From Parcubacteria group bacterium (GTDB lineage: Bacteria; Patescibacteriota; Minisyncoccia; Phycocordibacterales; CSBR16-119), in contig CALRFT010000001.1 in NCBI GenBank assembly GCA_943356745.1, positions 75,946-139,945 on the forward strand: 64,000 nucleotides of DNA, in the 5' to 3' direction. A model generated the notes under the pieces. It worked only from the letters and a program-made list of their open reading frames with translations. It made no database searches and was not told where the DNA came from. Positions 4,136 to 60,347 of the stretch are shown here, in pieces; position 1 is the first letter of the stretch, and each line of letters opens with the position of its first letter. The position numbers were made by a program, and so were the translations under genes.

Positions 4136-4145
4136 ATATTCAATA

Positions 4146-7143: not shown

Positions 7144-7194
7144 AAAATAATTATACTTGGTATTTCAAAAATATTTACATATTCTGTGGAGAAC

Positions 7195-7351
7195 AAAAAA
7201 CCACCCGAAGTTTTGGGTGGTTTTAAAATAGCTTGTATATTTTATTATAAATATTAATATTTAGAAATTTTAAATTAACTTATGATTAATAATCTAAATT
7301 CTGTAAAGTTATATAATTCCTAGTGACCGGACCAAAATACCCATTAGCCGG
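7195..7351. repeat. ~157-bp segment (gene 3′ end + terminator hairpin AAAACCACCCGAAGTTTTGGGTGGTTTT) duplicated at 10216..10372
   Basis: Near-identical in both copies, including the C-terminal …NGYFGPVTRNYITLQNLDY codons. Confidence 0.85.
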
Positions 7352-9985: not shown

Positions 9986-10215
9986 GTTTTATATTTTAAC
10001 TTAGATTTATAAATTTAAATAGTTAATTTAAATTAATATAAAAATATTACTTCTTGTCAACACAAACTCCGACCTATCATATTTTGCTTTGAGAAAGAAA
10101 TAAATAAAAAATGCAACAGACTCAACCAAAGTTTTAATTTTGTTTTATTGAAATAAATCCCACTACCGAACTACCTTTTTACAAAAGCTCTTTAATTTTT
10201 GACTTAGGAAGTATT

Positions 10216-10372
10216 AAAAACCACCCGAAGTTTTGGATGGTTTTTAAATAGCTTGTATATTTTATTATAAATATTAATATTTTAGAAATTTTAAATTAAC
10301 TTATGGTTAATAATCTAAATTCTGTAAAGTTATATAATTCCTAGTAACTAAACCAAAATATCCATTAGCCGG
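10216..10372. repeat. second copy of the ~157-bp 3′-end/terminator repeat (see 7195..7351)
   Basis: Sequence identity; differs by a few substitutions and one T indel. Confidence 0.85.
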
Positions 10373-35398: not shown

Positions 35399-37687
35399 TT
35401 AGAAATTTTCTTGAATAAATTGACGTGTAAAGTAATCAAGATACCCTGAAGCTTTTTGGAAGCTTGTAGGTGCCACAATCGAGTCTTGATAGAACGTCTG
35501 GAAATTTTTCAAAGCGCTAAAAGTCCTATCTCCAAAATAAGCAGTTTCCCTACCTGGTGAACCAGGCCCTGACTCAGCAAGAATAAATCCTTCTTCATTA
35601 AGAAACTTTTGTAAGCTAATTACATCAAAATGAGCTGTTCCATACCATAGGTCTTGATTAAATTCTCTGATTGTTATTTTTTCTTCTGAAGAATCATCTT
35701 TATTTTTATCGTTTTCTATTTCTGTTTTTAATTCGTCAGACAATATTACCAATGATTCTTTTGTTGTATTTGATATAGACTTACCATTACTTGAGCTACT
35801 TGAAACCGAATTATCTGAGTTAGATACCTGTAAATTTGTTTGATCAACATAGACTCCCGTACTAATTGTTACACTATTTCCACTAGCATTTTCTCCGAAC
35901 AATCCGAATATTGAGAAACTATTTGTATTACATGAAATTTCTCCAAGTCCTGTTTTAGGATTATAACTATTTACACACTGATTAAGTTTTCTCCATCCAA
36001 TCTCTTCTTCGTAGTGATGAATAACCAAAGTATTTAAATCAATATCTTTAATGTCTTCTCGTGTATATTCAATAGTAACAGTAATTGGTTGATCGAAGTT
36101 ATTTACCTCTTGTTCAGATGTTGCACTATAAGCAGCAAGATTATATACGTGTTCTCCTACCCATACAACTTTTTGTTCCGGTAGTCCAATCTCTTCTTTT
36201 GTTGTGAGTTTTTCTAGAAGTTTTACCTGAAATACCACTTCAGATTCTCCAGCTTTTAAATTTTGAGGAATTTCAAGCTTTGTTTTTACATCTGCGTCAG
36301 CAAAATCAATAATTCCTCCAACTGTTGTATCAATAACCCCTTCTTTAACTTTTTGAATTTCAGCTGTTGTAACACAACCTGTTGTTGTAAACTTCTGTTC
36401 TCCCCCAATTGCAACCTGAGAGAGGGAATCGTATGACTTCACAGTAAATGAGTAAGTTGTACATGGCAACAAATCAACAATAGTAACACTGTGCTCCATC
36501 ACTCTCGTATTTTTATTATATTCAGGTGTTGAAGTTTTTGTACTAAGAAGACCAAAATCAACACGCGTTGAAGTATTTTTATTTGTTGACCAACTAATAA
36601 CCGCGGAAGTATCACTTACAACTACGGTCGCAAGTCCAACAATTGATGGTGCAATATTTTTATCTGGTGAACCTTTCACCTCAACAGAATACTCTCCAGA
36701 CCCTACAGCATTGACAGCTCGCACTGCTACAGTGTAAGACATTCCATTTATAAGACCTGTAAGAATATGGCTCGTTTTTGATTGATTAACAGAAACCACA
36801 GAATTCACACCTTTAGCATCTGTATAAGAAATATTATATTCTGTAAGCGAAGACCCTCCGTTACTTGGAGCTGTCCAAGAAACAGAAAGTGTTGAATCAC
36901 CAGGTGTAAGAGTAATTCCGGAAGGAGTTTCAGGAACTGTTGCTACTATCTTCGCACTTGGAGTTGCCTCAATAGGATCAGAATATGTCCCAATGCCGAC
37001 AGAGTTTTCTGCAGCAACCTTAATAACATACTTAGTATTATTTGTTAGTTTATCTAAAAGATACCCTGTGTTTGTTGACTTAAGATCAATAATAGTCTCT
37101 CTACCATTAACTGTTACCGAGAGAATATAGTTTAGAATCATATCTCCCCCATCCTCTACAGGTTCCAGCCATGAGAGTTCAATTGACCCATCTCCAGGAG
37201 TTCCCTCGAGATTCAAAACTTCACTTGGTTCCACAGACTGCTTAGCAATAGCTGGTGTTGCAGAAACCAAAGATGATTGTTCACTAGTTCCGACAGCGTT
37301 AGAAGCAGCGATAATAAAACCATATTCCGTATCATTTTTTAAACCAGTTACAGTATAATTAGTATCTCCACTTTTTGTAGATATTGTATTTGATAATTTA
37401 CCCGCTGAATAAACTCCGATACGGTGGTCTGTTAAAGGCGATCCTCCATCTGATTCAACTTCCCAAGAAAGTTCAACTTGTGCATCGCCTGGAGTGGCAA
37501 CCACAGAGATAGGAGATGAAGGTGCTGTCGCTCCACCCTTTCCGACTTGCGCTCCAAGAAAAACATTTTGTGTTGGTTGATTGAATCCAACTAATACAAA
37601 CGCAGCAAGTCCAATTATTGCTAGCAAACTAAATGCTATATTTCCTTTCATGAAGGAAATTTTATTTTGTAAGTTTATTATAGACAT
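35399..37687 (-). CDS. surface protein with multiple fibronectin type III-like repeats and C-terminal peptidoglycan-binding domain
   Basis: N-terminal TM/signal; several FN3-like modules (…VELSWEV…YTVTGLKNDTEYGF…); C-terminal PG_binding_1-like domain (SLQKFLNEEGF…GYFG). Confidence 0.75.
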   Translation of the reverse strand: MSIINLQNKISFMKGNIAFSLLAIIGLAAFVLVGFNQPTQNVFLGAQVGKGGATAPSSPISVVATPGDAQVELSWEVESDGGSPLTDHRIGVYSAGKLSNTISTKSGDTNYTVTGLKNDTEYGFIIAASNAVGTSEQSSLVSATPAIAKQSVEPSEVLNLEGTPGDGSIELSWLEPVEDGGDMILNYILSVTVNGRETIIDLKSTNTGYLLDKLTNNTKYVIKVAAENSVGIGTYSDPIEATPSAKIVATVPETPSGITLTPGDSTLSVSWTAPSNGGSSLTEYNISYTDAKGVNSVVSVNQSKTSHILTGLINGMSYTVAVRAVNAVGSGEYSVEVKGSPDKNIAPSIVGLATVVVSDTSAVISWSTNKNTSTRVDFGLLSTKTSTPEYNKNTRVMEHSVTIVDLLPCTTYSFTVKSYDSLSQVAIGGEQKFTTTGCVTTAEIQKVKEGVIDTTVGGIIDFADADVKTKLEIPQNLKAGESEVVFQVKLLEKLTTKEEIGLPEQKVVWVGEHVYNLAAYSATSEQEVNNFDQPITVTIEYTREDIKDIDLNTLVIHHYEEEIGWRKLNQCVNSYNPKTGLGEISCNTNSFSIFGLFGENASGNSVTISTGVYVDQTNLQVSNSDNSVSSSSSNGKSISNTTKESLVILSDELKTEIENDKNKDDSSEEKITIREFNQDLWYGTAHFDVISLQKFLNEEGFILAESGPGSPGRETAYFGDRTFSALKNFQTFYQDSIVAPTSFQKASGYLDYFTRQFIQENF

Positions 37688-49443: not shown

Positions 49444-49527
49444 GCCCGGATGGTGGAATTGGTAGACACGCAAGACTTAAAATTTTGTGGCTTTATAGCC
49501 GTGCGGGTTCGATTCCCGCTCCGGGCA
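49444..49527 (+). tRNA. tRNA-Leu (anticodon UAA)
   Basis: GCCCGGA/TCCGGGC acceptor, anticodon loop CUUAAAA, long variable arm. Confidence 0.8.
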
Positions 49528-49576
49528 CAAATTAAAAGAGTGGAACGCAAAGCGTCCACTCTTTTAATTTAAACAT

Positions 49577-49649
49577 GAGGCGTAGGCGGGAATCGAACCC
49601 GCGCATGGCGGTTTTGCAGACCGCAGCGTTACCACTTCGCCACTACGCC
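49577..49649 (-). tRNA. tRNA-Cys (anticodon GCA)
   Basis: GGCGUAG/CUACGCC acceptor, anticodon loop CUGCAAA, T-arm GCGGG-TTCGATT-CCCGC. Confidence 0.8.
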
Positions 49650-49752
49650 TTAAAATAGGACTTACAGAGTGTATCACTTTTCAAACATTTTTACCAGTAA
49701 AATATAGACAAATTTTCTTTTATGTGATACCTTTTTAAGGTGGAAATAAAAA

Positions 49753-49825
49753 CCCTCCGTAGCTCAGATGGTAGAGCAGCTCCCTCTTAAGGAGACGGTC
49801 CTAGGTTCGATCCCTAGCGGGGGGA
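49753..49825 (+). tRNA. tRNA-Lys (anticodon CUU)
   Basis: Canonical D-arm GCTCAGATGGTAGAGC, anticodon loop CUCUUAA, T-arm CTAGG-TTCGATC-CCTAG. Confidence 0.8.
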
Positions 49826-49864
49826 CAAAAACATTACGGTAATGTTTTTAAATAAACAATATAT

Positions 49865-49949
49865 GCGGATGTGGTGAAATTGGTATACACGTTAGTCTTA
49901 GGAACTAATGCCTTACGGCGTGGAGGTTCAAGTCCTCTCATCCGCACCA
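49865..49949 (+). tRNA. tRNA-Leu (anticodon UAG), CCA encoded
   Basis: GCGGATG/CATCCGC acceptor, anticodon loop CUUAGGA, long variable arm; followed by a 15-bp-stem hairpin. Confidence 0.8.
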
Positions 49950-50074: not shown

Positions 50075-51034
50075 ATGAACAATACAATTCGCCAACGCAC
50101 AGAAACAAATGGTAGAGTTGTCATTAGCCCTATTACCTCTCAACTTGCTGGTATTTTTATTTCAGCCTCTCTCTTTCTTGTTGTCTTCATTATTTTTGAA
50201 GACACCATCGCAGAATCAACTCGCGGCTTTTTTCGCTGGTTACTCAGAATCGTGATATATTATTTTACTGCAAGACTTGCTATAAAATTTTTTAAAGCAG
50301 GACTTGGTGAAATTATTCCGATTGGTTCCTATGGTATTCCAAGGATATTTGGTAAACCTCAAGAAGGTTATCTGTATGGCCCTGGACGCTACTGGGATTT
50401 TCCTGGAAAAGGAAACAAGTCTGTTATTGTTGATATGAGATCAGAAAGTATTGATCTCAAAATTACAGTAACCACCTTTGATAATCTCAAGATGATTTGT
50501 CTACTTTATCTTAACTACTATGTATACAATCCCAATGTGTATGCTGAAGTAAAAGATTTTAAAAAGACTCTTGAATCAATGCTGAGTCAAGCCTTTCTTG
50601 ATTTATCATCAACAACAATCGCAGCAGACATGCTTCAGTTAAAAAAAGCAGATATCCGAGAAAAAATCGTGGAAGCCATCAGGGATATCGAGGGGCCTGG
50701 TTTCAAAATTGAAGATTTTGGAATTGAGATCCAGCAAGCAACAATCTCTGTCGGTGACGGTTTTGATTTTGTTGACCAAAAAACACGAGATGCTTTTGAG
50801 GCTGTAACCCGCGAAGAAAAACAAAGAGACTCTGAAATAACTGAGAAAAACCATTTCTCAAAACTTGCACAAGAATTAGTCGATGAAAGTAAGGGGAAAA
50901 TGACTTACAACGAAGCTTTTCTTCGTATTCAGCAACTTTACGGACGAAACGCACCTAAAGAAACAGTGGTTCGTATTCCCGGTCTCACAGAAGAAGCAGT
51001 TGGGAATGTTTTGAGTAAAATTTTTAAACCTTAA
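50075..51034 (+). CDS. SPFH/band-7-like membrane protein
   Basis: N-terminal TM helices followed by an SPFH-like core (…RYWDFPGKG…VDMRSESIDLKITVTTFDNL…GIEIQQATIS). Confidence 0.55.
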   Translation: MNNTIRQRTETNGRVVISPITSQLAGIFISASLFLVVFIIFEDTIAESTRGFFRWLLRIVIYYFTARLAIKFFKAGLGEIIPIGSYGIPRIFGKPQEGYLYGPGRYWDFPGKGNKSVIVDMRSESIDLKITVTTFDNLKMICLLYLNYYVYNPNVYAEVKDFKKTLESMLSQAFLDLSSTTIAADMLQLKKADIREKIVEAIRDIEGPGFKIEDFGIEIQQATISVGDGFDFVDQKTRDAFEAVTREEKQRDSEITEKNHFSKLAQELVDESKGKMTYNEAFLRIQQLYGRNAPKETVVRIPGLTEEAVGNVLSKIFKP

Positions 51035-51039
51035 AAATT

Positions 51040-51471
51040 ATGGCAAGCAGATTCACAAAAATGTGGCAATGGTGCATTAACCATGCAATCTTTTTAGGGA
51101 CATCACTTCTTTTTGTAACACTTCTTATTATTGCCATATATTCTTTTACACCAAGTAACACGAGTGACAAGAGAATGGCAAAAAATGAAGAAAGTATCCA
51201 AGAAGAACAAAAGGAAGGTTTTGTAAAAACCGAAGATGGGTACATAATCTATGACGCAATGGAGAATGTAACCATGCAAAAAGGTGAAATTCGAACTTTT
51301 CGAGTTCCTCTTGGAGTACAGATCAGAAGAAAACATACTGAAGGAGTGATTGAAAAACATTCAACCTCCCGAGGACACAAATATGTTCTCGTTGCAAAAA
51401 CAAATGCAACATTTGATCTTGTGTGGGTTATAGAGAAAGGTTTTGAACATAAAGTCAAACCAAAATCATAA
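51040..51471 (+). CDS. hypothetical membrane-anchored protein (possible NfeD-like partner of the SPFH protein)
   Basis: N-terminal TM; C-terminal beta-rich segment; position downstream of the SPFH gene. Confidence 0.4.
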   Translation: MASRFTKMWQWCINHAIFLGTSLLFVTLLIIAIYSFTPSNTSDKRMAKNEESIQEEQKEGFVKTEDGYIIYDAMENVTMQKGEIRTFRVPLGVQIRRKHTEGVIEKHSTSRGHKYVLVAKTNATFDLVWVIEKGFEHKVKPKS

Positions 51472-51571
51472 ACCAAAAAGCTCTTTAAAACCCTGCAAAC
51501 ATGCAGGGTTTTTCTTTTGTCTTTTTTAAAAAATTCCAAATTAAAAAACTCGCCGAGATGGCGAGTTTTTA

Positions 51572-51928
51572 TTATTGAACCTGAACTTCTCCAGTATCAA
51601 CATTGATTGTGTTTGTATTTTCATTAATCTGCACTTCATCGATACCAAGAGTCGATGTAAGAATTCTGAGAATAAAAAATACTGAAGTCATTATTGCAAG
51701 TCCTACTAGACCCCACATGATATGATCTCTTCCCTTTATTTTTGCGTCAGCACTATCTTTATTGAGAGTATATTCAATAATACCCCAGATAAAGATAATG
51801 AAAGCGAGAGCGAAAAGTATACGGATTATTGGGTTTACAATGTAGTAGTTTATCTTAAGCAGAGCCTGGTCAAGATTCATTGCATATGCTGTTTTAGCAA
51901 AAAGCTCAAGCATATATAATACTAACAA
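51572..51928 (-). CDS. two-TM VirB2/TrbC-like (T4SS-pilin-like) small protein, paralog 1; alt start 51913
   Basis: Hydrophobic helix – basic/acidic loop (NKDSADAKIKGRD) – hydrophobic helix – C-terminal …LTSTLGID motif shared with neighbours. Confidence 0.6.
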   Translation of the reverse strand: MLVLYMLELFAKTAYAMNLDQALLKINYYIVNPIIRILFALAFIIFIWGIIEYTLNKDSADAKIKGRDHIMWGLVGLAIMTSVFFILRILTSTLGIDEVQINENTNTINVDTGEVQVQ

Positions 51929-52284
51929 CCGCCTTCAACCTGCGGAATTCCTTGAATACAAGGCACATCTTGAATTTGTATTTGGTTGCTATCATCAAGA
52001 CCAAAAGTATTTTGCACAATTCGGATGATTCCCCAGAAAGCAACAATCACAAAGAGTCCTATGAGACCATTTACAATTTCTTCACTCTTACCCTTCCCCA
52101 TAATGTACTTTACAACCGTATAGATAAAGTACGCAATAGCAGCAATGATAAGAATAGTAATGATTGTGTTAATAAGATCAATAATGGTAGTTAAAACACC
52201 TTGTGCATTTTGAGCAAATGCCGCAATTGGTGCAAGTGACAAAACTCCTAACACAGCAGCAAATAATGAGAAACTTTTTTTCAT
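51922..52284 (-). CDS. two-TM VirB2/TrbC-like (T4SS-pilin-like) small protein, paralog 2
   Basis: Signal peptide MKKSFSLFAAVLGVLSLAPIAAFA, TM1, loop KYIMGKGKSEEI, TM2, C-terminal IRIVQNTFGLD. Confidence 0.65.
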   Translation of the reverse strand: MKKSFSLFAAVLGVLSLAPIAAFAQNAQGVLTTIIDLINTIITILIIAAIAYFIYTVVKYIMGKGKSEEIVNGLIGLFVIVAFWGIIRIVQNTFGLDDSNQIQIQDVPCIQGIPQVEGGC

Positions 52285-52402
52285 AATTATGTAAATTAAT
52301 TTAATAAATTTATATATAAATATCGTCTTTCAACGCTTGGTTAGATTATATCACGCAAAAACCCCTATTTTTAAAAGTAAAAATAGGGGTGTGGAAATCA
52401 AA

Positions 52403-52822
52403 CTATTGGGTTTCTGGGAGAAGTGGAATACCACCGCCTGAAATTCCAAAAGTATTTCGAATAATTTCAATAAGGCCAGAAATTGAAAACAAGACAAACA
52501 TACCAATTAAAGCACCGATAATATAAGATCTTGCTTCTTCTCTTTTCTTTGCATTATCAGGATTGAGAAAGAATTGAATAACTCCATAAATAAACACAGC
52601 GAGCGCAATTATATACAAAAGAGGTACTATTGATTTAATAACCAGACAGGTAGCGTAGTCTATAATATCTTTAAAAGTATTAATACTTCCCCCAAACAAC
52701 GCATCGCAAGCTGGTGCCGAAGAAGATGGAGTTGTTTGCCCAAAAGAAACTAATGGAATAACTAGAAAAGAAAATATAACACTATGTACTATTATTGAAC
52801 TTAATTTTTTTTTGATTTGCAT
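52403..52822 (-). CDS. two-TM VirB2/TrbC-like (T4SS-pilin-like) small protein, paralog 3; ORF-track start 52870
   Basis: Signal peptide, TM1, loop NPDNAKKREEARS, TM2, C-terminal IEIIRNTFGIS. Confidence 0.6.
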   Translation of the reverse strand: MQIKKKLSSIIVHSVIFSFLVIPLVSFGQTTPSSSAPACDALFGGSINTFKDIIDYATCLVIKSIVPLLYIIALAVFIYGVIQFFLNPDNAKKREEARSYIIGALIGMFVLFSISGLIEIIRNTFGISGGGIPLLPETQ

Positions 52823-52826
52823 ATAG

Positions 52827-53822
52827 TTACGAAACAATAAGATTGATAGTGTTTGTAAGGATTGTTGCAATAGTCCAAGCTCCGAGAACTACCGCTGAAC
52901 CGATAATTGTATACAAGAGTAGTTTTTTCGCATCAGCGATTTTTGTTGGATTTCCACGAGCTGCTACAAATCTAAATCCTGTATACACGAGAGCAAGGAC
53001 AATAATTGGTATTCCAGCTCGCATGATTATTCCTAGTAAAGATTCTACAAATTGTGGAAGACTACTTCCATCTCCAAGTGGATTTTCAATACAGGAGGTT
53101 TGTCCATCAGTCTGACAGTTAAGAGTTTCGGGTGTATATTGAGCATTTGATTGTGAATCATCATCTGGAGCTGTTCCAGATTGTGAATCATCATCTGGAG
53201 CTGTTCCGGATTGTGAATCATTAATATTTTGATTATTTGGATCATTTGGACTTATATATGCCCCAGGAACATAACCAGGAGTTGAGGACCAGACAGTGCC
53301 AATATATGACCACAATTGATTTCCATTACAATTATCATCACACTCATAAGCAAAACTGAGTGTATTACTTCCTTGAAAATCAATGTCTGTTTGCCCAGAT
53401 TCAAAAGCAAGATAAAAATTACATTCAGTTACCAATTCACATTCTTCACCTCCAGCCCGAAAGACTAAAGTCTGAACAAGTGATGAAGCTTGAACAATAT
53501 AACTAGCACTAATTACTTCGTCATCGAAAACATCTCCAGTAACAATTATCTCATCATCCTCTTCCATAATTGAAAGTGTGACTTGTTGTCCTGCACAGTC
53601 TTGATTAAACTCAACATCAAGATATACGTATGGCTGGGAGTTGTTTTCAGCAAAAGCGTCAGTATACCAATTGTCATCAAATGTAATTCCTTCAGCGTGA
53701 CGAAATAATCCAGATGTAATTTGACAAGCGGCCAGAGTTTTATTTGGAAATGAGAAGACTATCAAACCAAAGAAAACCAGAAGACTATATTGAATTATTT
53801 TTTTACTTAAAAAATATTTCAT
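52827..53822 (-). CDS. pilin-like protein with Cys-rich ~250-aa N-terminal ectodomain fused to C-terminal two-TM pilin module; ORF-track start 53897
   Basis: Signal peptide MKYFLSKKIIQYSLLVFFGLIVFSFPNKTLA; ectodomain with about 12 Cys and DSQSGTAPDD repeats; C-terminal GIPIIVLALVYTGFRFVAARGNPTKIADAKK…TM2; ATG 2 nt after the upstream gene stop. Confidence 0.65.
   Translation of the reverse strand: MKYFLSKKIIQYSLLVFFGLIVFSFPNKTLAACQITSGLFRHAEGITFDDNWYTDAFAENNSQPYVYLDVEFNQDCAGQQVTLSIMEEDDEIIVTGDVFDDEVISASYIVQASSLVQTLVFRAGGEECELVTECNFYLAFESGQTDIDFQGSNTLSFAYECDDNCNGNQLWSYIGTVWSSTPGYVPGAYISPNDPNNQNINDSQSGTAPDDDSQSGTAPDDDSQSNAQYTPETLNCQTDGQTSCIENPLGDGSSLPQFVESLLGIIMRAGIPIIVLALVYTGFRFVAARGNPTKIADAKKLLLYTIIGSAVVLGAWTIATILTNTINLIVS
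53151..53222 (-). repeat. 30-bp tandem repeat (~2.4 copies) encoding DSQSGTAPDD units in the pilin-ectodomain gene
   Basis: ttgtgaatcatcatctggagctgttcc[a/g]ga repeated in tandem. Confidence 0.85.
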
Positions 53823-53824
53823 GA

Positions 53825-54613
53825 TTATACGAAAAAGATAATAATAGACGCTGTAAGATCGATAAGAGTGGAATGAATAAGTTGTGCCAAAGCCCACGCT
53901 GCAAGGAGAATCGCACCACCAATAAGAGTATACAGAAACATATCATGAGCTTTTTTAATTTCACCTGGATTACCTCGAGCAAAGAGATAAAGCCATCCTG
54001 AGTATACAATCATTACAACAAGAAGTGGTATTCCTATTTTAAGTAAGCCTTCAAAAACTTTCTGAATTAATTCTGGAATTGAATTTATAGAAATAGGATT
54101 TTCAATTTCAACCTGTGTCACTTCTGGAGTTTGAGATAATGTAGAACCAGACCCAGAAGATGTTGACAAATTTGTATTTACTCCCGCACTTGAGCAAGAT
54201 GAACTATTTACTATTTCTGAAATAATATTTGATTGACTTACTGTTTGACCACCTGCCGCAGTTTTTTCCTGAACGATAAACTGATAATTACCATTTCCAA
54301 TGAAAGCAGATCCTATGAAAGGCTCATTATCAAGAACTCCATCAAGTGGGATTGATACAATATTATCATTATTATTTTGAACTATATTATTGTCTTCAAT
54401 TTCATTGATAACTAATACAAAATAATTTCCGTTTGTAAAAGTGCTTGGGTTAATTGATAGACTAAAAGTTCCATTCAACTGACAAGAACTATTCAACGAT
54501 GGATTTACCGAAAAAGTTTGAAACTGAGCAACCGCAAACATCTCTTGAGGCGTAAACACACAGATGATTAAAGTTACATAAAAAACGATTATTGTAAAAA
54601 ATTTTGTTTTCAT
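53825..54613 (-). CDS. pilin-like protein with Ser/Asn-rich ~180-aa N-terminal ectodomain fused to two-TM pilin module; ORF-track start 54661
   Basis: Signal peptide MKTKFFTIIVFYVTLIICVFTPQEMFA; C-terminal GIPLLVVMIVYSGWLYLFARGNPGEIKKAHD…TM2. Confidence 0.65.
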   Translation of the reverse strand: MKTKFFTIIVFYVTLIICVFTPQEMFAVAQFQTFSVNPSLNSSCQLNGTFSLSINPSTFTNGNYFVLVINEIEDNNIVQNNNDNIVSIPLDGVLDNEPFIGSAFIGNGNYQFIVQEKTAAGGQTVSQSNIISEIVNSSSCSSAGVNTNLSTSSGSGSTLSQTPEVTQVEIENPISINSIPELIQKVFEGLLKIGIPLLVVMIVYSGWLYLFARGNPGEIKKAHDMFLYTLIGGAILLAAWALAQLIHSTLIDLTASIIIFFV

Positions 54614-54623
54614 TTTATTATGT

Positions 54624-55937
54624 TTATATTCCAAGAATTTGAGTAATAACCCCACTTGCATCAGTGTAGCCGAGAATAACGAGAATAAATTTTACGATCA
54701 CCCAAGCCCCCATCGCAAACACAATTCCGAGTAAGACTTGACCAAACAAACTTTTTGCTTCAGAAAGAGCCGCTTGTTTTCCTTGTGATCTTGCGATAAT
54801 AAGCTTAATACCTGACCAAGCAAACATAATCGCAGCAAGAGGAAGAATGATCACATATAACATAAACTTAATAATCCTATCTATCGTTTCAAGAAGTTGA
54901 TTAAAGTCACAATCATATATTTCCCCATAGCCACATTGAGTAAAGCCTTGTTCTATGTTTTCCCCCTGCAATTCTGACACACCAAACGTGCCATCAATAT
55001 TTATATTTATGGTACCCGCTACACCTGAACCTGTAATACCATTTGATCCTGCCCCATTTCCATTACTCTGAACGCCGGTAGTAAAAGATTCATATGGAAG
55101 ATTTGAATCAGTATTAATAATAATAGAACCACCACTATTCATAATAGTAAGGTAGTATGTTGTATTGTTTTGTAATCCAGATATTTCAAGTGGGACATTG
55201 CCTCCATTTGTTGTAAACAAGAGTGTTTGAACTGGTCCTGTAAAATTAGGATTTACAACTTGAGAATTAGAAGAATACACCACAGGAAAAGTTAAACCTG
55301 AATCTAAGCTTGAAGTATCAACAACAAAACTAACGCTATTTTGACTTGGTAAAATATTTTCAATACTTGCTGTTCCAGGAATATTTTGACCACTTGTCTG
55401 CAAGGCTTGATTTACACCTGTTGGACTACAGTTTGAAACTACTGGAGTACTTGGCTGACAAGATGAACTAATTGTTCCATCTGCATTAGGTGTGCAGATT
55501 GTAGTTATATCATCTGTTTGGTTTTGTGGTGTGATAATGTGATAAGTTCCATCTGAAGCAACTTCGACAAATTGAACAATATATTTTGTTGCAGGTTGTA
55601 AATTATTCCCAATTGACATATTGATAGCAGTCTCAAGAGGTTCCACACTTGGAGTATGTGTACCGTATGTCCAAACAGGATTATCAATAGTACTGTAAGG
55701 AGCTGTTCTAGCACGAACGTTAGTTGGTGTTGTTGAGTAAAAAGTTGCAAGCAGACACATGCCGGGTGTATTACCACTCACAAAACCAGAGTAAGCATTA
55801 AACTCTACAACTTCGCCAATATGAAGAGCTTCGGTTGATACTTGAGCCTCGGAATAAAAAGGTAAAAATAAAAATAGCAATATCCCTAATAAGATATTAT
55901 GTAATATTTTTTTAATTGTAATATTAGAAAGCGTCAT
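54624..55937 (-). CDS. pilin-like protein with ~330-aa N-terminal ectodomain fused to two-TM pilin module
   Basis: Signal peptide; Thr/Ser/Asn-rich beta-rich ectodomain; C-terminal …IILPLAAIMFAWSGIKLIIARSQGKQAALSEAKS…TM2. Confidence 0.65.
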   Translation of the reverse strand: MTLSNITIKKILHNILLGILLFLFLPFYSEAQVSTEALHIGEVVEFNAYSGFVSGNTPGMCLLATFYSTTPTNVRARTAPYSTIDNPVWTYGTHTPSVEPLETAINMSIGNNLQPATKYIVQFVEVASDGTYHIITPQNQTDDITTICTPNADGTISSSCQPSTPVVSNCSPTGVNQALQTSGQNIPGTASIENILPSQNSVSFVVDTSSLDSGLTFPVVYSSNSQVVNPNFTGPVQTLLFTTNGGNVPLEISGLQNNTTYYLTIMNSGGSIIINTDSNLPYESFTTGVQSNGNGAGSNGITGSGVAGTININIDGTFGVSELQGENIEQGFTQCGYGEIYDCDFNQLLETIDRIIKFMLYVIILPLAAIMFAWSGIKLIIARSQGKQAALSEAKSLFGQVLLGIVFAMGAWVIVKFILVILGYTDASGVITQILGI

Positions 55938-57261
55938 TTATTTTTTCACTCGCCTCATTAACAGCCCTGGTTGGGTTTAATCTACCCGAAGTAACATTTG
56001 AAACCATATCTGCAAAAATATTATCTAAGATTCTAGGGTTAGGTGTTATCCACCCACGTGCAATTATTGCAGAATCAAAAAATATTTTTTGATATGGGTT
56101 TGGTGGTTTAATTGCTAGTAAATCTTTTCTTACAGGCTGAAGTCCAACAGCAGACAAAAATGATGCTGTGTAAGAGCCATTTGCGATAGCACCAGAAACA
56201 GAGAATGCACCTGTTGTATTCTTACTAATTTTAGGTACTGCTAAAGCATAAAAGTTACCGTATGTGAGACTCTTATTCAATTCTTCAATTTGAGGAACTT
56301 GAACAACATCAAAGTTCAAGTTTGGATTTTTTCTTTGTATTTCAAGTAATTCTGAGGCAAAACCAAAATATAATGCAGTTTTTCCAGCAGAAAATGCGTC
56401 TCTCGCTTCTGGCATGTCATTATTCCAAGAATAATTCTCATGTGAAGGATTTGAAAAGTTTGTGAAATATTCAAGTGAAGAAGATACCGGTGCATTTGTA
56501 ACAAGTGAAGACTCTGTAAGTAATGATTGAAAACCAGCTTCACTTTCTGTAGTCATAAGACTGCCTAACTGCATTGCAAGAGTTGATATAATCGGAATAG
56601 AATGTTTAATATTTGAAGTTTCACCCAGAGGGACGGCGGACAGATTTATTTCTATATCATTATCAGGTTTTTTAGTAATTGTTTGAGAAAAAGTAATAAA
56701 ATCTCCGTTCCAAAATGAAGGCGGGTTTACAAATCCAGCAGACTCTATAATATCTCGATTGTAGTACATAACTAAAGAATCAACCCCAATAGGAAGCCCA
56801 ACTGTCCCTTGTCTTATTTTAAATATTTCAGAACCTTGAGAATAAATGTCTCTAAAATTTCTTACCGGAAACGTTACCTCATCAAGAAGGATTAGCTTAT
56901 CTGAATATCTTGAAATAAGAGTGTGGGGTAAAATAACTATATCTGGTACATTCCCTCTGGCAAATGCCTCAAGGAGTTCTTCGTCGTAGGTTTCCGGATT
57001 TATTGGAACATAAGAAAGAACACTATTTTTATTTTCTCCATTAAAATTATTTACAAATTCAGACATGTAAATACTAGGAAATGGACCCCACATAGTAATA
57101 TTTCCTGTTGCAACAACAACACCTTCACCGCCTCTTTGTGGTGTTTTTATAAAACCAGAAAAAATCATAAGACCAAGTACTAGTCCAACACCAAGAATTG
57201 CAAGTAGGATTGTTTGAAATTTTTTTGTTTTTTGATCCATAGAATACTTTAATTGTAACAC
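55924..57261 (-). CDS. membrane-anchored extracellular solute-binding-protein (SBP family 1)-like protein; alt start 57240
   Basis: N-terminal TM anchor; SBP-like segments (…EAFARGNVPDIVIL…, …GKTALYFGFASEL…); no ABC permease/ATPase genes nearby. Confidence 0.5.
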   Translation of the reverse strand: MLQLKYSMDQKTKKFQTILLAILGVGLVLGLMIFSGFIKTPQRGGEGVVVATGNITMWGPFPSIYMSEFVNNFNGENKNSVLSYVPINPETYDEELLEAFARGNVPDIVILPHTLISRYSDKLILLDEVTFPVRNFRDIYSQGSEIFKIRQGTVGLPIGVDSLVMYYNRDIIESAGFVNPPSFWNGDFITFSQTITKKPDNDIEINLSAVPLGETSNIKHSIPIISTLAMQLGSLMTTESEAGFQSLLTESSLVTNAPVSSSLEYFTNFSNPSHENYSWNNDMPEARDAFSAGKTALYFGFASELLEIQRKNPNLNFDVVQVPQIEELNKSLTYGNFYALAVPKISKNTTGAFSVSGAIANGSYTASFLSAVGLQPVRKDLLAIKPPNPYQKIFFDSAIIARGWITPNPRILDNIFADMVSNVTSGRLNPTRAVNEASEKINDAF

Positions 57262-57285: not shown

Positions 57286-57819
57286 TTATTCAACATGTCG
57301 AAAAATCAAACCGTAATGATGTGGACCAGCCTCAAATCTTTTTTCTAAAACAAAACCATTATTCTCAAATAGACTCCGAGCTATTTCTTCTGAAACAACA
57401 TGAAGAGAATCAGGACCAAGTCCCGCAAAAGATTCTGACCAGTCAACAATAACAACTTTTCCATTTTTCTTCAGAATTCTTTTTACTTCATTTACTAATC
57501 CGCTTTTACTTTCTGTTTGGAATAATACATTTGAAATCAAGACAATATCAACAGCCTCACTTTTTAGTTTTGTTCCGCCAATATTTTCAGCATCACCCCA
57601 CATGGCATGTATATTTAATATATTTTTTTCTGCTGCCTGCTTAACAAGTTTTTCAAGGAGATCTTTTTGAATATCAATAGCATACACTGAACCCTCCTGG
57701 CCCACTAAAGGTGAAATAAGGAAACTATAGTGGCCAATCCCCGCTCCAATATCAGCAACAGACTTTCCAGCTGAAAGTCCGAGGTATTTTATTACTTCTT
57801 CTGGTTTAATGAAAGACAT
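57286..57819 (-). CDS. class I SAM-dependent methyltransferase
   Basis: SAM-binding motif VADIGAGIGHYS, …VYAIDI…. Confidence 0.75.
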   Translation of the reverse strand: MSFIKPEEVIKYLGLSAGKSVADIGAGIGHYSFLISPLVGQEGSVYAIDIQKDLLEKLVKQAAEKNILNIHAMWGDAENIGGTKLKSEAVDIVLISNVLFQTESKSGLVNEVKRILKKNGKVVIVDWSESFAGLGPDSLHVVSEEIARSLFENNGFVLEKRFEAGPHHYGLIFRHVE

Positions 57820-57878: not shown

Positions 57879-60347
57879 TTATAGAAGTGTCGCTGATGCA
57901 AGTTCGTCACCTTCACGAAGTTTCATCACCCTAACACCTTGTGTATCTCGTCCAAGTGTTGGAATAGTTTCGATTTCCATCTTTATCACTTGTCCTTTCT
58001 TTGAAACTACAATGAGTTCACTTGATTCTGGTGTTACAAGATTTGCAGAAATAAGCGGACCTGTTTTTGTCGTGATTTTTGCAGTTCGAACCCCAGAACC
58101 TCCTCGTCCTTGAATTTTAAATTCAGAAAGCTCTGTTTGCTTACCATAACCATTTCCCATAATCACAAGCCATGTTGCTGTTTTTGATGCTTCTTTTGTG
58201 ACAACAGACGCACCCACAACAGTGTCATTTTTCTTGAGTTTAATTCCTCGAACACCAGCAGCGCCTCGTCCCATTTCGCGAACATCCTCATCCTTGAAAC
58301 GAATAGCTTGCCCTTGCTTTGTTGCAATAATAACCTCACTATCTTTTTGCAAGAAACATGCAGAATATAGTTCATCTTCTGGAGCAAGCTTGATTGCAAT
58401 CAAACCACTTCGCCTTACATCTTTAAAGCTTTCAGCAGAAACTTTTTTAGTTGTTCCCTGTTTTGTTACAAAGATAAGATATGGAGCAGTTTCATTTTTA
58501 TTTTTCTCCATAGCAACAATTGAAGTGATGTATTCTTCGGCCTCAAGTTGCAAAAAGTTCATGATTGATTTTCCTTTTGTGGCACGTCGTCCTTCTGGAA
58601 TTTCATACATTTTAATTTGATATGCTTTTCCTTTATTTGAGAAGAAAAGCAGGTCAGCATGAGTACTTGCATTCAAAAGATGAGTTACAATATCCTCTTC
58701 TTTTGTTGAAATATCAACCACTCCAACACCTCCACGCTTTTGTGTTCTGTATTCGCTTGGATCTGTTCTTTTTACATATCCACCTTGTGTAAATACCAGT
58801 ACACTTTCTTTCTCTGGAATCAAATCTTCTTGAGAAATGTTTTTTACTCCACCCTTAATGATTTTCGTTCGGCGAGTATCATTATATTTCTCTTTGATTT
58901 CTTTCAATTCATCTGAAATTACTTTCAAGATTTTTGCACGAGAAGCGAGAAGTGCTTTCAATCCTTTAATGATAGCTTGTTTTTCTTTTAGCTCATCTTC
59001 GATTGCCTTTCTTTCCAATCCAGCCAATCTTTGAAGTCTCATATCAAGAATCGCCTGTGCTTGAATGTCTGTAAATTTAAATCTCTTAATCAAATTTACC
59101 TTTGCTTCATCTTTATCTTTTGACTTTCGAATCAAAGTGATGATTTCATCAATATGATCAAGTGCTTGCTTGAGACCGAGAAGAATATGCTCTCTTGCTT
59201 CAGCCTTATCAAGATCAAATTTTGTTCTTCGAACAACAACCTCTTCTCTGTGCTTAATAAACTCTACCAAAAAATCTTTAAGTGAAAGAGTTTGAGGAAC
59301 ACCATCAACAAGAGCAACAAGGTTGAAGTTAAAGTTCTGCTCAAGCTGAGTATTTTTATATAAAAAGTTCAAAACCTTTTGAGGAAAAGCTCCAGATTTA
59401 AGCTCTATTACAATTCGAATATCGTCTGTTGATTCATCTCGAAGATCTTTAATCCCTTCTAGTTTCTTTTCATGAACAAGATCAGCGATACTTGTCACCA
59501 GATTTGCTTTGACAACACGGTATGGAATTGAAGTAATGATAATTTCAAATTGTCCTGCTTTTGTTTCAACAATTTCAGCTTCTCCACGAGTAACAACCCC
59601 TCCACGTCCTGTTGCATAGGCTTGAAGAATATCTTTTTGGTTATAGATAAGTCCTCCTGTTGGAAAATCTGGAGCTTGAACAAATTGAACCAAATCTTCT
59701 GTGGTCGCGTCTGGGTTTTCAATCAAATGAAGTGTTCCATCAATAACCTCACCAAGATGATGCGGTGGGATATTTGTCGCCATACCAACCGCAATACCAA
59801 GTGTTCCATTCAAAAGAAGAGATGGAACAGCCGCTGGAAGAACCATTGGCTCAGTTTGACTTCCGTCATAGTTTGGACGAAAATCGACTGTATTTTTTTC
59901 AATATCACGCAGAAGCTCTGCGGCAACCTTACTCATTTTTGCTTCGGTATAACGCATCGCCGCTGCTGAGTCTCCGTCGATTGACCCAAAGTTTCCCTGT
60001 CCAATTACGAGTGGATATCTGAAAGAAAAAGTTTGTGCAGTGTTTACCATGGCGTCATACACAGCAGTGTCACCGTGTGGGTGATATTTTCCGATTACGT
60101 CTCCCACAATACGTGCAGACTTTACGAATTTTGAAGAAGGAGTAATTCCCATTTTATGCATCGCATACAAGATACGTCGATGTACAGGCTTAAGACCGTC
60201 TCGAATATCTGGAAGCGCCCGCTGTGTAATAACAGACATCGCATAAGCCAAATACGATTCTCGCATTTCTTGAACAATACTCGTAGGAAGGATTGATTCA
60301 CTTGGAACCGGTTGTCCTTCTATTTTTTCATTTGTTTTCTTTGCCAT
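57879..60347 (-). CDS. gyrA: DNA gyrase subunit A
   Basis: AAAMRYTEA active-site Tyr region, GyrA beta-pinwheel C-terminal repeats; 822 aa. Confidence 0.9.

What the first reader, a model, noticed from the sequence alone, without database searches (positions are those of the whole stretch)
51572..57261. Array of six paralogous two-TM VirB2/TrbC-like ('T4SS-pilin-like') genes, three fused to large divergent ectodomains, plus a membrane-anchored SBP-like protein — candidate novel surface filament/adhesion system
Six consecutive overlapping or abutting minus-strand genes share a C-terminal module: signal peptide, hydrophobic helix, short charged loop (ARGNPxxIxxAKK / NPDNAKKREE / GKGKSEEI), a second hydrophobic helix, and a conserved tail (I(R/E)I(V/I)(Q/R)NTFG). 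Three are bare ~120-155-aa pilin-like proteins. Three carry N-terminal ectodomains of 180-330 aa that are unrelated to each other: one Cys-rich with DSQSGTAPDD tandem repeats, one Ser/Asn-rich, one Thr-rich. This looks like major-subunit paralogs plus tip- or adhesin-bearing subunits, by analogy with minor pilins. These are not type IV pilins, because there is no class III prepilin signal. No secretion ATPase is in the window. Upstream in the same orientation are a membrane-anchored solute-binding-protein-like gene without ABC partners and a SAM methyltransferase. Pilin-like arrays of this type are common in CPR genomes but functionally uncharacterised; the ectodomain fusions suggest host-surface recognition.
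Basis: inference. Interest (0 to 1): 0.75.

Follow-up and report, generated by a model that had tools for sequence, protein, structure and literature searches.

The report
Pilin gene array with swappable adhesin domains
An ultrasmall (Patescibacteria) bacterium carries a conserved six-gene set of type IV secretion-type pilin proteins, a known kind of array, but here three carry surface domains that differ sharply between near-identical strains, making them candidate host-recognition parts.

Summary
Exactly six minus-strand ORFs (51572-55937) share a C-terminal two-helix module. Five match Pfam PF18895 (T4SS_pilin); the sixth weakly matches TrbC/VirB2.

The kind is already published. Arrays of 2-11 VirB2-like pilins are reported in 383 Patescibacteria assemblies, and a six-gene array is essential in Ca. 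Southlakia epibionticum.

What this analysis adds:
- The window is a Ca. Nomurabacteria/Paceibacteria chromosome. The order gyrA-methyltransferase-SBP-array is syntenic in about 43 species-level genomes.
- The paralogs are ancient and fixed by position (five orthogroups), not interchangeable copies.
- G6, G5 and G4 have a signal peptide, then a beta-sandwich ectodomain, a disordered linker and the pilin hairpin (modelled for G6 and G4; G5 from sequence only). G6 has tandem FN3-like domains.
- Against a sister strain with 98-99.5% identical housekeeping proteins, the G5 and G4 ectodomains are 34-43% identical. The modules are 88-94% and the short pilins 97-99%. dS is about 1.4 against about 0.1, indicating allele replacement.
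- A conserved TGnTATAAT promoter precedes G2-G1.
- No VirB4 or VirB6 was seen. A VirD4-like ATPase lies 6.4 kb beyond the window.

Verdict: a new variant of a known kind. Pilus assembly and adhesion remain inferred.

The parts
54624..55937 (-). G6: 437-aa pilin paralog at array position 1. Signal peptide, two FN3-like beta-sandwich domains, a disordered Gly/Asn/Ser linker, a Cys-x7-Cys loop and a C-terminal 2-TM pilin hairpin.
   Evidence: ORF. PF18895 19.7 bits and TrbC 16.9 bits at residues 350-418. Twenty full-length homologs, with six invariant Cys. AF2 pLDDT 71.7: beta domains at 40-148 and 190-286, linker 291-344 at pLDDT about 30, helices 341-385 and 388-421. Foldseek finds tandem FN3 domains at E about 3e-7.
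53825..54661 (-). G5: pilin paralog at position 2 (278-aa ORF; likely 262 aa from the ATG at 54613). About 140-aa Ser/Asn-rich ectodomain, a linker and the pilin module.
   Evidence: PF18895 42.5 bits, above the 26.6 cutoff. Against the sister strain the ectodomain is 34% identical and the module 88%, with dS 1.36. No ectodomain homolog in 80 species representatives. No structure was predicted.
52827..53897 (-). G4: pilin paralog, a recent duplicate of position 2 (356-aa ORF; likely 331 aa from the ATG at 53822). Cys-containing beta-sandwich ectodomain, a repeat linker and the pilin module.
   Evidence: PF18895 35.2 bits. Module scores 73.6 bits against G5. Seventeen homologs, with invariant C33, C76, C128 and C134. 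AF2 pLDDT 73: beta-sandwich 35-177, disordered 203-250, helices 255-330. Weak matches to adhesin repeat, MG-like and carbohydrate-binding beta-sandwiches. Against the sister strain the ectodomain is 43% identical and the module 94%.
53149..53221 (-). 30-nt tandem repeat (2.4 copies) encoding the DSQSGTAPDD linker repeat of G4.
   Evidence: TRF score 139, 97% matches. The region is disordered in the model. Repeat sequence and number vary among orthologs.
52403..52870 (-). G3: short pilin (155-aa ORF; likely 139 aa from the ATG at 52822). Signal peptide, two Cys before TM1 and the 2-TM module.
   Evidence: PF18895 24.1 bits. Orthologs sit at the third-from-last array position. 99.3% identical to the sister strain.
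52285..52402 (-). Intergenic region between G3 and G2. It holds a terminator-like hairpin (52390-52361) followed by an extended -10 element TGATATAAT (52353-52345), 66 nt upstream of the G2 ATG. This is the likely internal promoter for G2-G1.
   Evidence: Hairpin dG is -15.6 kcal/mol but is not conserved in relatives. An 80-150 nt gap at this position is conserved. TGnTAnAAT is present in 30 of 34 relatives' gaps.
51922..52284 (-). G2: 120-aa short pilin with a canonical Sec signal peptide, the 2-TM module, and a C-terminal tail with two Cys.
   Evidence: Pfam gives only a weak TrbC match, 15.6 bits. The relatives-only HMM gives E 4.4e-19. Orthologs sit at the penultimate position. 96.7% identical to the sister strain.
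51572..51928 (-). G1: last gene, a short pilin (118-aa ORF; the gene caller gives 102 aa from 51880). It overlaps the G2 stop by 7 nt. It has a 16-residue leader ending in AYA rather than a full signal peptide.
   Evidence: PF18895 25.8 bits. It is the best-conserved orthogroup, 90-124 bits across genomes. 99.0% identical to the sister strain.
55924..57261 (-). G7: membrane-anchored MalE-like solute-binding protein. It overlaps the G6 start by 14 nt and is always the gene immediately upstream of the array.
   Evidence: SBP_bac_1 53.1 bits and SBP_bac_8 46.8 bits. One N-terminal TM segment. Distant sugar-SBP hits in PDB. Present in 43 loci. dN/dS 0.08. No ABC permease or ATPase in the window.
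57286..57819 (-). G8: small cytoplasmic SAM-dependent methyltransferase between gyrA and the SBP gene. The linkage is conserved; any role in the system is unproven.
   Evidence: Methyltransf_31 65.2 bits. Found after gyrA in 46 loci.
51487..51512 (.). Palindromic terminator-like hairpin between the 3' end of G1 and the convergent plus-strand gene.
   Evidence: 11-bp stem with 5 GC pairs and T-runs on both sides. Consensus match only.

Best explanation
This is a core-chromosomal operon of a Ca. Nomurabacteria/Paceibacteria (Patescibacteria) genome. It encodes six members of the Patescibacteria VirB2-like 'T4SS_pilin' family.

Proposed mechanism, with each step marked:
1. Shown by sequence features: each protein enters the membrane through Sec by a cleavable signal peptide (G1 has a short AYA leader). 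It adopts an N-out / C-out helical hairpin. The basic loop faces the cytoplasm, and the Cys-containing flanks and ectodomains face outward.
2. Inferred from positional orthology, purifying selection and the existence of covalently concatenated modules in the family: the five ancient orthogroups are non-redundant subunits that co-assemble side by side.
3. Inferred by homology with VirB2 and from the essential pilin array inside the S. epibionticum T4SS cluster: a VirB4/VirB6-type machine encoded elsewhere in the genome extracts or organises them into an envelope-spanning or extracellular T4SS pilus-like structure. The near-invariant short pilins G3, G2 and G1 form the body. G2-G1 are driven by their own conserved extended -10 promoter.
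4. Inferred from fold, linkers and strain-level allele replacement: G6, G5 and G4 are accessory subunits. Each displays a beta-sandwich binding domain on a flexible linker at the surface. These act as exchangeable host- or target-recognition adhesins, filling the role that VirB5, PrgB-type adhesins or minor pilins play in other systems.

The co-transcribed MalE-like SBP is a conserved partner of unknown role. It may capture or sense a sugar at the contact site.
For: Family membership:
- PF18895 is the top hit on the module in five of six proteins.
- 37 of 38 lineage modules match PF18895, and 15 of 38 also match TrbC/VirB2 with a best E of 1.4e-7.
- hhalign against genuine plasmid VirB2/TrbC is collinear over 62 columns, E 1.8e-4.

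Specificity:
- Only these six of 259 window ORFs hit a relatives-only HMM.

Topology:
- Signal peptides and two TM helices; basic loops and K/R-free tails.
- Invariant Cys in the ectodomains and just before TM1.

Structure:
- G6 has tandem FN3-like domains, a disordered linker and a hairpin.
- G4 has a beta-sandwich resembling adhesin repeat, MG and carbohydrate-binding domains.

Conservation:
- gyrA-MT-SBP followed by 5-6 pilin genes in about 43 species-level genomes.
- Each module's best matches sit at the same array position in other genomes: 66-124 bits, against 21-74 bits between paralogs in the window.
- dN/dS is 0.02-0.15 on the modules and short pilins.

Hypervariability (unless stated):
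- The sister strain has GyrA, IF2 and YchF at 98-99% identity, with dS 0.04-0.19.
- Its G5 ectodomain is 34% identical and its G4 ectodomain 43%, with gene-wide dS about 1.4.
- The modules are 88-94% identical.
- The same ectodomain-versus-module contrast holds across all homologs.

Expression:
- TGnTAnAAT occurs in 30 of 34 gaps before the penultimate gene.

Genomic and literature context:
- A VirD4-like T4CP lies on the same strand about 13 kb from the array.
- VirB4 occurs in 2,417 of 3,035 Patescibacteria assemblies, and pilin genes are often far from it (PMC12102498).
- The PF18895 array SEML1_0014-0019 is essential (PMC10633639).
- No PrgB-type adhesins were detected in Patescibacteria (PMC12102498), so the adhesin role is unassigned.
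Against: - No VirB4, VirB6, VirB3 or VirB8 was found in the 64-kb window, in the 10-kb extensions on each side, or upstream of the T4CP in the sister strain.
- T4CP homologs are near-universal in Patescibacteria, usually unlinked to virB4, and non-essential in S. epibionticum (PMC12102498). The nearby T4CP is therefore weak support.
- The link to canonical VirB2 is only suggestive (hhalign probability 48.8%). No solved pilin matched by sequence or by fold beyond generic helical hairpins.
- No pilus of this type has been imaged in any Patescibacterium (PMC12857230 calls it a possibility).
- A 140-300 aa domain on a VirB2-type subunit has no known precedent and could block tight helical packing.
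- The loop is longer (about 8-15 residues) than in VirB2.
- dN/dS on the ectodomains is 0.2-0.5, not above 1. dS is saturated, so the test is uninformative, and diversification is by allele exchange rather than demonstrable positive selection.
- The G5 ectodomain has no structural model.
- The strict linkage to the SBP is not explained.
Confidence: 0.55

Rival explanations
1. The hairpin modules form a membrane-embedded hetero-oligomer rather than a filament. They never leave the cytoplasmic membrane and form a fixed-stoichiometry ring, pore or raft. This anchors surface-displayed beta-sandwich proteins and may work with the co-transcribed SBP in uptake or sensing. The 'pilin' name would then reflect only distant ancestry.
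For: - No VirB4 or VirB6 lies nearby.
- The gene set is fixed at five orthogroups in conserved order.
- The SBP gene is always immediately upstream and overlaps G6.
- Many family members are single polypeptides of 2-12 or more concatenated modules. HMMER counts up to 16 stretches in one 1,775-aa protein. These would be hard to extract subunit by subunit into a pilus. They recall fused c-ring subunits; in Wang 2023 Table S2 one array member's best structural class was 'F1F0 ATP synthase subunit C'.
- The fold search finds only generic hairpins.
Against: - Profile membership in PF18895 and links to TrbC.
- In S. epibionticum the homologous array sits inside the T4SS gene cluster and is essential together with it (PMC10633639).
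- N-out / C-out concatenation is also geometrically compatible with VirB2-type pili, where both termini face outward (established knowledge of F and T pilus structures).
- No ATPase or permease that could energise a transporter lies nearby.
Confidence: 0.25
2. The paralogs are interchangeable versions of one pilin. They are expressed alternately to evade immunity or phage, or to switch host. This is the analogy with Bartonella and Anaplasma drawn in PMC12102498.
For: - Paralogs within the array are divergent (16-34% identity).
- The literature proposes this for Patescibacteria arrays.
- The ectodomain genes vary strongly between strains.
Against: - Each paralog has a positional ortholog in about 43 species. 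Between-genome scores are much higher than paralog scores.
- G3, G2 and G1 are 97-99% identical between strains and under strong purifying selection.
- The paralogs differ in architecture.
- Variation arises by allele replacement at fixed positions, not by paralog turnover.
- No invertible promoter or silent-cassette features were seen. Only a fixed internal promoter was found.
Confidence: 0.08
3. This is a mobile-element or phage module: conjugative-element pilins, or holin-like two-TM lysis proteins carried on an island.
For: - Weak NCBIfam similarity to the Mycoplasma ICE 'Mbov_0395 pilin-like conjugal transfer protein' (E 7e-5 to 0.018).
- A tRNA cluster and two hypervariable genes lie just downstream.
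Against: - The array sits at a fixed chromosomal position between gyrA and infB/rbfA in about 43 species.
- No integrase, relaxase, phage or holin families appear in the window.
- Base composition is uniform.
- Relaxases are rare in Patescibacteria (PMC12102498).
Confidence: 0.02

Closest known systems
Essential VirB2-like pilin array of Ca. Southlakia epibionticum ML1 (SEML1_0014-0019), and the 441 'VirB2 arrays' catalogued in Patescibacteria (Wang 2023, PMC10633639; Quinonero-Coronel 2025, PMC12102498)
   Same: Same Pfam family (PF18895, with or without PF04956). Both are tandem arrays of about six sequence-divergent paralogs with a signal peptide and a two-TM hairpin, in a monoderm episymbiont lineage, without a relaxase.
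   Different: - The S. epibionticum genes are short, about 126-185 aa, and lie inside the T4SS cluster next to virB4 and virB6.
- Here three genes carry 140-300 aa ectodomains, and relatives reach a protein length of 617 aa.
- Here the array is detached from any VirB4 or VirB6 seen. It is fixed beside gyrA, fronted by an SBP gene, and split by an internal promoter.
[quoted passage not shown]
Canonical conjugative pilins TrbC/VirB2 (PF04956; A. tumefaciens VirB2, RP4 TrbC)
   Same: Leader peptide, two hydrophobic helices joined by a short polar loop, and a collinear profile alignment. Both termini are predicted to face outward.
   Different: - Similarity is marginal (probability 48.8%).
- The canonical genes sit in a virB1-virB2-virB3-virB4 order. 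That order is absent here.
- Canonical pilins have no extra domains, a short loop, and usually one copy per system.
- They belong to diderm hosts.
Tip or minor subunits that add adhesion to a filament: VirB5 of T4SS pili, large minor pilins and PilY1-type adhesins of type IV pili, and tip adhesins of sortase pili
   Same: The functional logic is the same: a few accessory subunits share the polymerisation module or dock to it, and they present a binding domain. The beta-sandwich adhesin-like folds are also shared.
   Different: There is no sequence or fold relation to VirB5. The assembly modules and secretion routes differ. Here the adhesin domain is fused directly to a VirB2-type hairpin.
VirB2 paralog amplification in Bartonella and Anaplasma (antigenic variation)
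   Same: Multiple divergent VirB2-like genes in tandem in a host-dependent bacterium.
   Different: The paralogs here are ancient, positionally orthologous and individually conserved. Variation is confined to the ectodomains of three genes.

Membership tests
Pfam PF18895 T4SS_pilin (Patescibacteria VirB2-like pilins) | Profile match across the about 70-residue two-helix module, at or above the curated cutoff of 26.6 bits | tested here: met
   G5 scores 42.5 and G4 35.2, both above the cutoff. G1 (25.8), G3 (24.1) and G6 (19.7) fall below it, but PF18895 is still their top hit. G2 has no PF18895 hit and only TrbC at 15.6 bits. Of 38 modules from this lineage's arrays, 37 match at E<=0.01. G2 is tied to the family by the relatives-only HMM (E 4.4e-19).
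Pfam PF18895 T4SS_pilin (Patescibacteria VirB2-like pilins) | Secretory leader followed by a TM1 / basic loop / TM2 hairpin (N-out, C-out) | tested here: met
   Hydropathy analysis and start-codon analysis. The loops carry 2-4 K/R and the tails none. Helical hairpins appear in the models. G1 has only a 16-residue AYA leader.
Pfam PF18895 T4SS_pilin (Patescibacteria VirB2-like pilins) | Genomic association with T4SS core genes (virB4, virB6, virB3/trsD) | tested here: not met
   None found in the window, in the 10-kb extensions on each side, or upstream of the T4CP in the sister strain. Only a VirD4-like T4CP lies about 13 kb away. The published survey found the pilin gene near virB4 in 1,135 of 1,948 assemblies, so association is common but not defining (PMC12102498). 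The rest of the 519-kb contig could not be read.
Canonical TrbC/VirB2 conjugative pilin (PF04956) | Significant sequence-profile homology to bona fide VirB2/TrbC | tested here: inconclusive
   PF04956 hits are sub-threshold: E 0.0015-0.019 for G2, G4 and G6. 15 of 38 lineage modules reach E<=0.01, best 1.4e-7. hhalign against eight annotated plasmid VirB2/TrbC proteins gives probability 48.8%, E 1.8e-4. No PDB pilin matches by sequence.
Canonical TrbC/VirB2 conjugative pilin (PF04956) | Small single-domain protein encoded in a virB1-virB2-virB3-virB4 type operon | tested here: not met
   G4-G6 carry 140-300 aa ectodomains. The operon context here is gyrA-MT-SBP, unlike the plasmid loci.
Canonical TrbC/VirB2 conjugative pilin (PF04956) | Polymerises into an extracellular pilus, with maturation by cyclisation or acetylation | not testable with these tools
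   This needs microscopy and biochemistry.
Type IV (T4P) pilins | Class III prepilin leader: a short basic leader, G|F/M-x-x-x-E, and a single N-terminal hydrophobic helix | tested here: not met
   The N-termini are ordinary Sec signal peptides with AxA-type cleavage sites. The hydrophobic hairpin is C-terminal. No T4P Pfam families hit.
Phage holins | Holin family profile match and a lysis-cassette or phage context | tested here: not met
   No holin family appears among the Pfam or NCBIfam hits down to E=1. The flanks are housekeeping genes and the position is syntenic in about 43 species.
ABC-transporter solute-binding protein, cluster MalE-like (G7 only) | SBP_bac_1 fold, plus adjacent permease and ATPase genes | tested here: inconclusive
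   The domain is present (53.1 bits; distant sugar-SBP hits in PDB). No permease or ATPase lies in the window or in the flanks of relatives. It is an orphan SBP.

The most novel reading that the evidence does not exclude
The five ancient hairpin orthogroups build a fixed-composition, T4SS-derived contact organelle: a heteromeric stalk or conduit. One layer might hold one copy of each orthogroup, echoing the five-fold layers of conjugative pili. Its surface carries recombination-swappable receptor-binding domains that set host range, much as phage tail fibres do. The co-transcribed orphan SBP would capture host-derived sugars at the tip or base. This would be a previously undescribed nutrient-scavenging and host-recognition apparatus of Patescibacteria, not a conjugation-type pilus.
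Probability: 0.15. Interest if true: 0.85.

Novelty: new variant of a known kind. Interest (0 to 1): 0.52.

Why it matters
How Patescibacteria recognise and attach to their hosts, and what their near-universal T4SS does, are stated open questions (PMC11665869, PMC12857230). The 2025 survey found no PrgB-type adhesins.

If VirB2-like pilins themselves carry the binding domains, the missing adhesin may be built into the pilin array. Strain-level cassette replacement of those domains would then give concrete candidates for host-range determinants. These can be tracked in metagenomes and tested in the genetically tractable Saccharibacteria.

The positional orthology also argues against the published 'antigenic variation' reading of such arrays. 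It favours a multi-subunit assembly instead, and that changes which experiments make sense.

Tried and rejected
- A module profile searched against all PDB sequences gave only chance TM matches (GPCRs, cytochrome oxidase), with best E 0.066.
- I looked for VirB4 and VirB6 by walking the source contig 10 kb past each window end, and upstream of the T4CP in a sister strain. Only housekeeping genes turned up.
- The terminator-like hairpin after G3 is not conserved in relatives, so a conserved attenuator is rejected. The promoter element beside it is conserved.
- The sigma-70 promoter scan of the whole region is not enriched over shuffles (25 found, 26.9 expected). It was not used as evidence for an operon start.
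- The G5 ectodomain shows no relation to the G6 family profile (probability 2.7%).
- The holin, phage and ICE explanations are rejected on synteny and the absence of such families.
- The ORF-fusion artefact explanation for the long proteins is rejected. There are 20 full-length homologs of G6 and 17 of G4.
- dN/dS above 1 on the ectodomains was not found (0.19-0.50), and dS is saturated.

Full report
**1. What is there**

Eight co-oriented minus-strand genes lie between gyrA (57879-60347) and a convergent gene pair:
- a SAM methyltransferase (G8, 57286-57819);
- a membrane-anchored solute-binding protein (G7, 55924-57261);
- six genes that share a C-terminal two-helix module: G6 54624-55937, G5 53825-54661, G4 52827-53897, G3 52403-52870, G2 51922-52284 and G1 51572-51928.

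Start-codon context and hydropathy suggest internal starts for G3 (M17), G4 (M26) and G5 (M17). They also show a signal-peptide-like N-terminus plus two C-terminal TM helices in five of the six. G1 has only a 16-residue leader ending in AYA, a motif conserved in its orthologs.

The genes are tightly packed or overlapping, apart from a 118-nt gap between G3 and G2.

An HMM built only from homologous modules of other genomes hits exactly these six of 259 window ORFs, at E 4e-19 to 2e-27. Nothing else hits up to E=10. The paralogy is therefore real and specific.

**2. Family**

Pfam places the module in PF18895 (T4SS_pilin) for five of the six:
- G5 (42.5 bits) and G4 (35.2 bits) exceed the 26.6-bit cutoff.
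- G1 (25.8), G3 (24.1) and G6 (19.7) fall just below it.
- G2, G4 and G6 also give weak TrbC/VirB2 (PF04956) hits.

NCBIfam gives only weak hits to a Mycoplasma ICE pilin-like family.

Across 38 modules sampled from this lineage's arrays, 37 match PF18895 and 15 also match PF04956, with a best E of 1.4e-7.

As an independent test I retrieved eight annotated VirB2/TrbC proteins from conjugative plasmids and compared profiles. hhalign gives a collinear 62-column alignment covering pre-TM1, TM1, loop and TM2, at E 1.8e-4 but only 48.8% probability.

No solved pilin matches by sequence. Fold searches match the hairpin only to generic helical hairpins.

Membership in the Patescibacteria T4SS_pilin family is therefore firm. 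Homology to canonical VirB2 is plausible but not proven here. Type IV pilin and holin assignments fail: there is no class III leader and there are no such profile hits.

**3. Organism and conservation**

The window is part of a 518,649-bp metagenomic contig. A GyrA-anchored scan of GTDB species representatives shows the nearest relatives are Ca. Nomurabacteria / Paceibacteria MAGs, at 83% GyrA identity for the closest and 66-75% for about 40 more.

In about 43 of these genomes the order gyrA - methyltransferase - SBP - 5 or 6 pilin-module genes is conserved.

Each window module finds its best matches at the same array position in other genomes, at 66-124 bits. Paralogs within the window score only 21-74 bits against each other. 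This defines five ancient orthogroups. G5 and G4 are a more recent duplication of position 2 (73.6 bits). There are two subfamilies: {G6, G5, G4} and {G3, G2, G1}.

This pattern argues for non-redundant subunits of one assembly. It argues against the 'antigenic-variation reservoir' suggested by analogy in the literature.

**4. Ectodomains**

G6 has 20 full-length homologs, and G4 has 17. Their alignments show invariant cysteines in the ectodomains and immediately before TM1. The modules are much better conserved than the ectodomains.

- The AlphaFold2 model of G6 has mean pLDDT 71.7. It shows a signal helix, two beta-sandwich domains (residues 40-148 and 190-286, pLDDT 70-92), a disordered linker (291-344) and a helical hairpin. 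Foldseek matches the ectodomain to tandem fibronectin type III domains of cell-adhesion molecules at E about 3e-7.

The linker of G4 is encoded by a 30-nt tandem repeat. The repeat varies among orthologs.

The G4 and G6 families are related only through the module. G5's ectodomain is unrelated to G6's by sequence, and it was not modelled.

Three things together place the ectodomains outside the cell: the signal peptides, the basic inter-helix loops with K/R-free tails, and the conserved Cys pairs. The window also encodes a DsbD-MsrAB fusion and a thioredoxin.

**5. Strain-level hypervariability**

A sister strain was recovered through the homolog searches. Against the window it compares as follows:

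| Gene or region | aa identity | dS |
|---|---|---|
| GyrA, IF2, YchF, RbfA, NifS | 98-99.5% | 0.04-0.19 |
| T4CP | 99% | n/a |
| G3 | 99.3% | 0.146 |
| G2 | 96.7% | 0.184 |
| G1 | 99.0% | 0.149 |
| G6 | 88% | 0.45 |
| G5 whole gene | 54.7% | 1.36 |
| G5 ectodomain / module | 34% / 88% | n/a |
| G4 whole gene | 57.5% | 1.43 |
| G4 ectodomain / module | 43% / 94% | n/a |

The roughly ten-fold excess of dS over the flanks shows that these genes were replaced by divergent alleles through recombination. They did not simply evolve faster in place. The modules stay under strong purifying selection (dN/dS 0.07-0.10).

Across species the ectodomain-bearing positions vary in protein length. Position 1 ranges from 125 to 617 aa, and position 2 from 85 to 345 aa. 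The window's ectodomains have few or no detectable homologs among the 80 species representatives.

**6. Expression architecture**

An 80-150 nt gap before the penultimate gene is conserved in the arrays of relatives.

In the window this gap holds a strong hairpin (dG -15.6) followed by TGATATAAT. The hairpin is not conserved. An extended -10 motif, TGnTAnAAT, is present in 30 of 34 relatives' gaps.

G2-G1 are thus probably a separately promoted unit. This fits a role as the abundant structural subunits, but that role is an inference.

**7. Machinery**

No VirB4, VirB6, VirB3 or VirB8 family appears in any of the following:
- the window;
- the 10-kb extensions on both sides;
- the region upstream of the T4CP in the sister strain.

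A 670-aa VirD4-type coupling protein (PF02534, PF10412, PF12696) lies on the same strand about 10 kb upstream of gyrA. That corresponds to window coordinates of about 70438-72450, 6.4 kb beyond the window end. It is syntenic in the closest clade.

The literature tempers its weight. T4CP homologs occur in 2,918 of 3,035 Patescibacteria genomes, are mostly unlinked to virB4, and are non-essential in S. epibionticum. VirB4 occurs in 2,417 of 3,035 assemblies, and pilin genes are near it in only 1,135 of 1,948 assemblies.

**8. Comparison with what is known**

Arrays of VirB2-like pilins in Patescibacteria are published. There are 441 arrays of 2-11 genes in 383 assemblies, at about 25% identity within arrays (PMC12102498). 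A six-gene array within the T4SS cluster is essential for epibiotic growth of S. epibionticum (PMC10633639; PMC12857230).

The S. epibionticum pilins are short, however, at about 126-185 aa. I found no mention in the searchable library of VirB2-like pilins fused to large ectodomains. I also found no mention of their positional orthology, of strain-level cassette replacement, or of the SBP linkage.

The family is very large. It has 63,792 cluster representatives at E<=1e-3.

**9. Mechanism and verdict**

The best-supported reading (confidence about 0.55) has these parts:
- The proteins are Sec-exported, N-out / C-out hairpin subunits.
- The five orthogroups co-assemble.
- A T4SS encoded elsewhere probably organises them into a pilus-like, envelope-spanning structure.
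- The invariant short pilins form the body.
- G6, G5 and G4 present exchangeable beta-sandwich binding domains on flexible linkers.

What is shown: family membership, topology features, the folds of G6 and G4, synteny, orthology, hypervariability and the promoter motif. What is inferred: co-assembly, filament formation, dependence on VirB4, adhesion and the SBP's role.

The main rival (about 0.25) is a membrane-embedded heteromeric complex that anchors surface proteins, possibly working with the SBP. Three observations favour it: the absence of nearby T4SS core genes, the strict SBP linkage, and the multi-module single-chain relatives.

Novelty: a new variant of a known kind. Interest: moderate, 0.52.

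Noticed in passing
window 50075-51034 (+) and 51040-51471 (+): The two convergent genes just downstream of the array are an SPFH/Band-7 membrane protein and a 143-aa protein with no family. They are only 32% and 46% identical to their counterparts in the sister strain, with dS about 1.8-1.9. Flanking housekeeping genes are 98-99.5% identical. This second hypervariable patch lies between the pilin array and a tRNA cluster (49444-49949). Neither gene has homologs at this position in the 80 relatives.
   Followed up: partly
P0001, P0004 and 143 others of the 150 best family representatives: Many members of this pilin family are single polypeptides with 2-12 or more concatenated hairpin modules. 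HMMER counts up to 16 stretches in the 1,775-aa P0001. Some carry inserts of 200-570 aa. Two-module fusions also occur in the middle of the array (position 2, 3 or 4) in nine relatives: L026, L029, L034, L035, L038, L039, L041, L042 and L076. Covalent 'poly-pilins' bear on whether these proteins form pili or membrane rings.
   Followed up: partly
L090 165-2635 (equivalent to window coordinates about 70438-72900, beyond the right end): A VirD4/TraG-type coupling protein (670 aa) is preceded by an overlapping 152-aa TM protein. A secreted LTD/PKD-domain protein and an ECF sigma / DUF5667 anti-sigma pair follow it. The block is syntenic in the closest clade. The T4CP is 99% identical in the sister strain.
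   Followed up: partly
window 5410-14506 and 35399-37687 (-): A run of very large secreted proteins of 577-1,399 aa, four of which (including one further along at 35399-37687) end in a PG_binding_1 peptidoglycan-binding domain. Their domains include Big_5, SASA esterase, beta-helix/NosD/GLUG and 4x FN3. They are possible cell-wall-targeting or host-interaction proteins, and were not examined further.
   Followed up: no
window 2360-4661 (-): A DsbD-like membrane domain is fused to MsrA and MsrB, next to a thioredoxin. This extracytoplasmic redox system would suit the many conserved Cys pairs in the pilin ectodomains.
   Followed up: no
L012 and L032: Two relatives have GyrA at 73% and 68% identity and 10 kb of sequence held downstream of gyrA. 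Neither shows a methyltransferase, SBP or pilin-module hit there. The array has moved or been lost in these genomes. In the more distant L061, gyrA-MT-SBP persists, but three pilin-module genes lie on the opposite strand.
   Followed up: no
window 57286-57819 and 55924-57261: The methyltransferase and SBP genes have dS of 0.44 and 0.30 against the sister strain. This exceeds gyrA (0.13) and other flanks. The recombined tract seems to begin upstream of the pilin genes.
   Followed up: no
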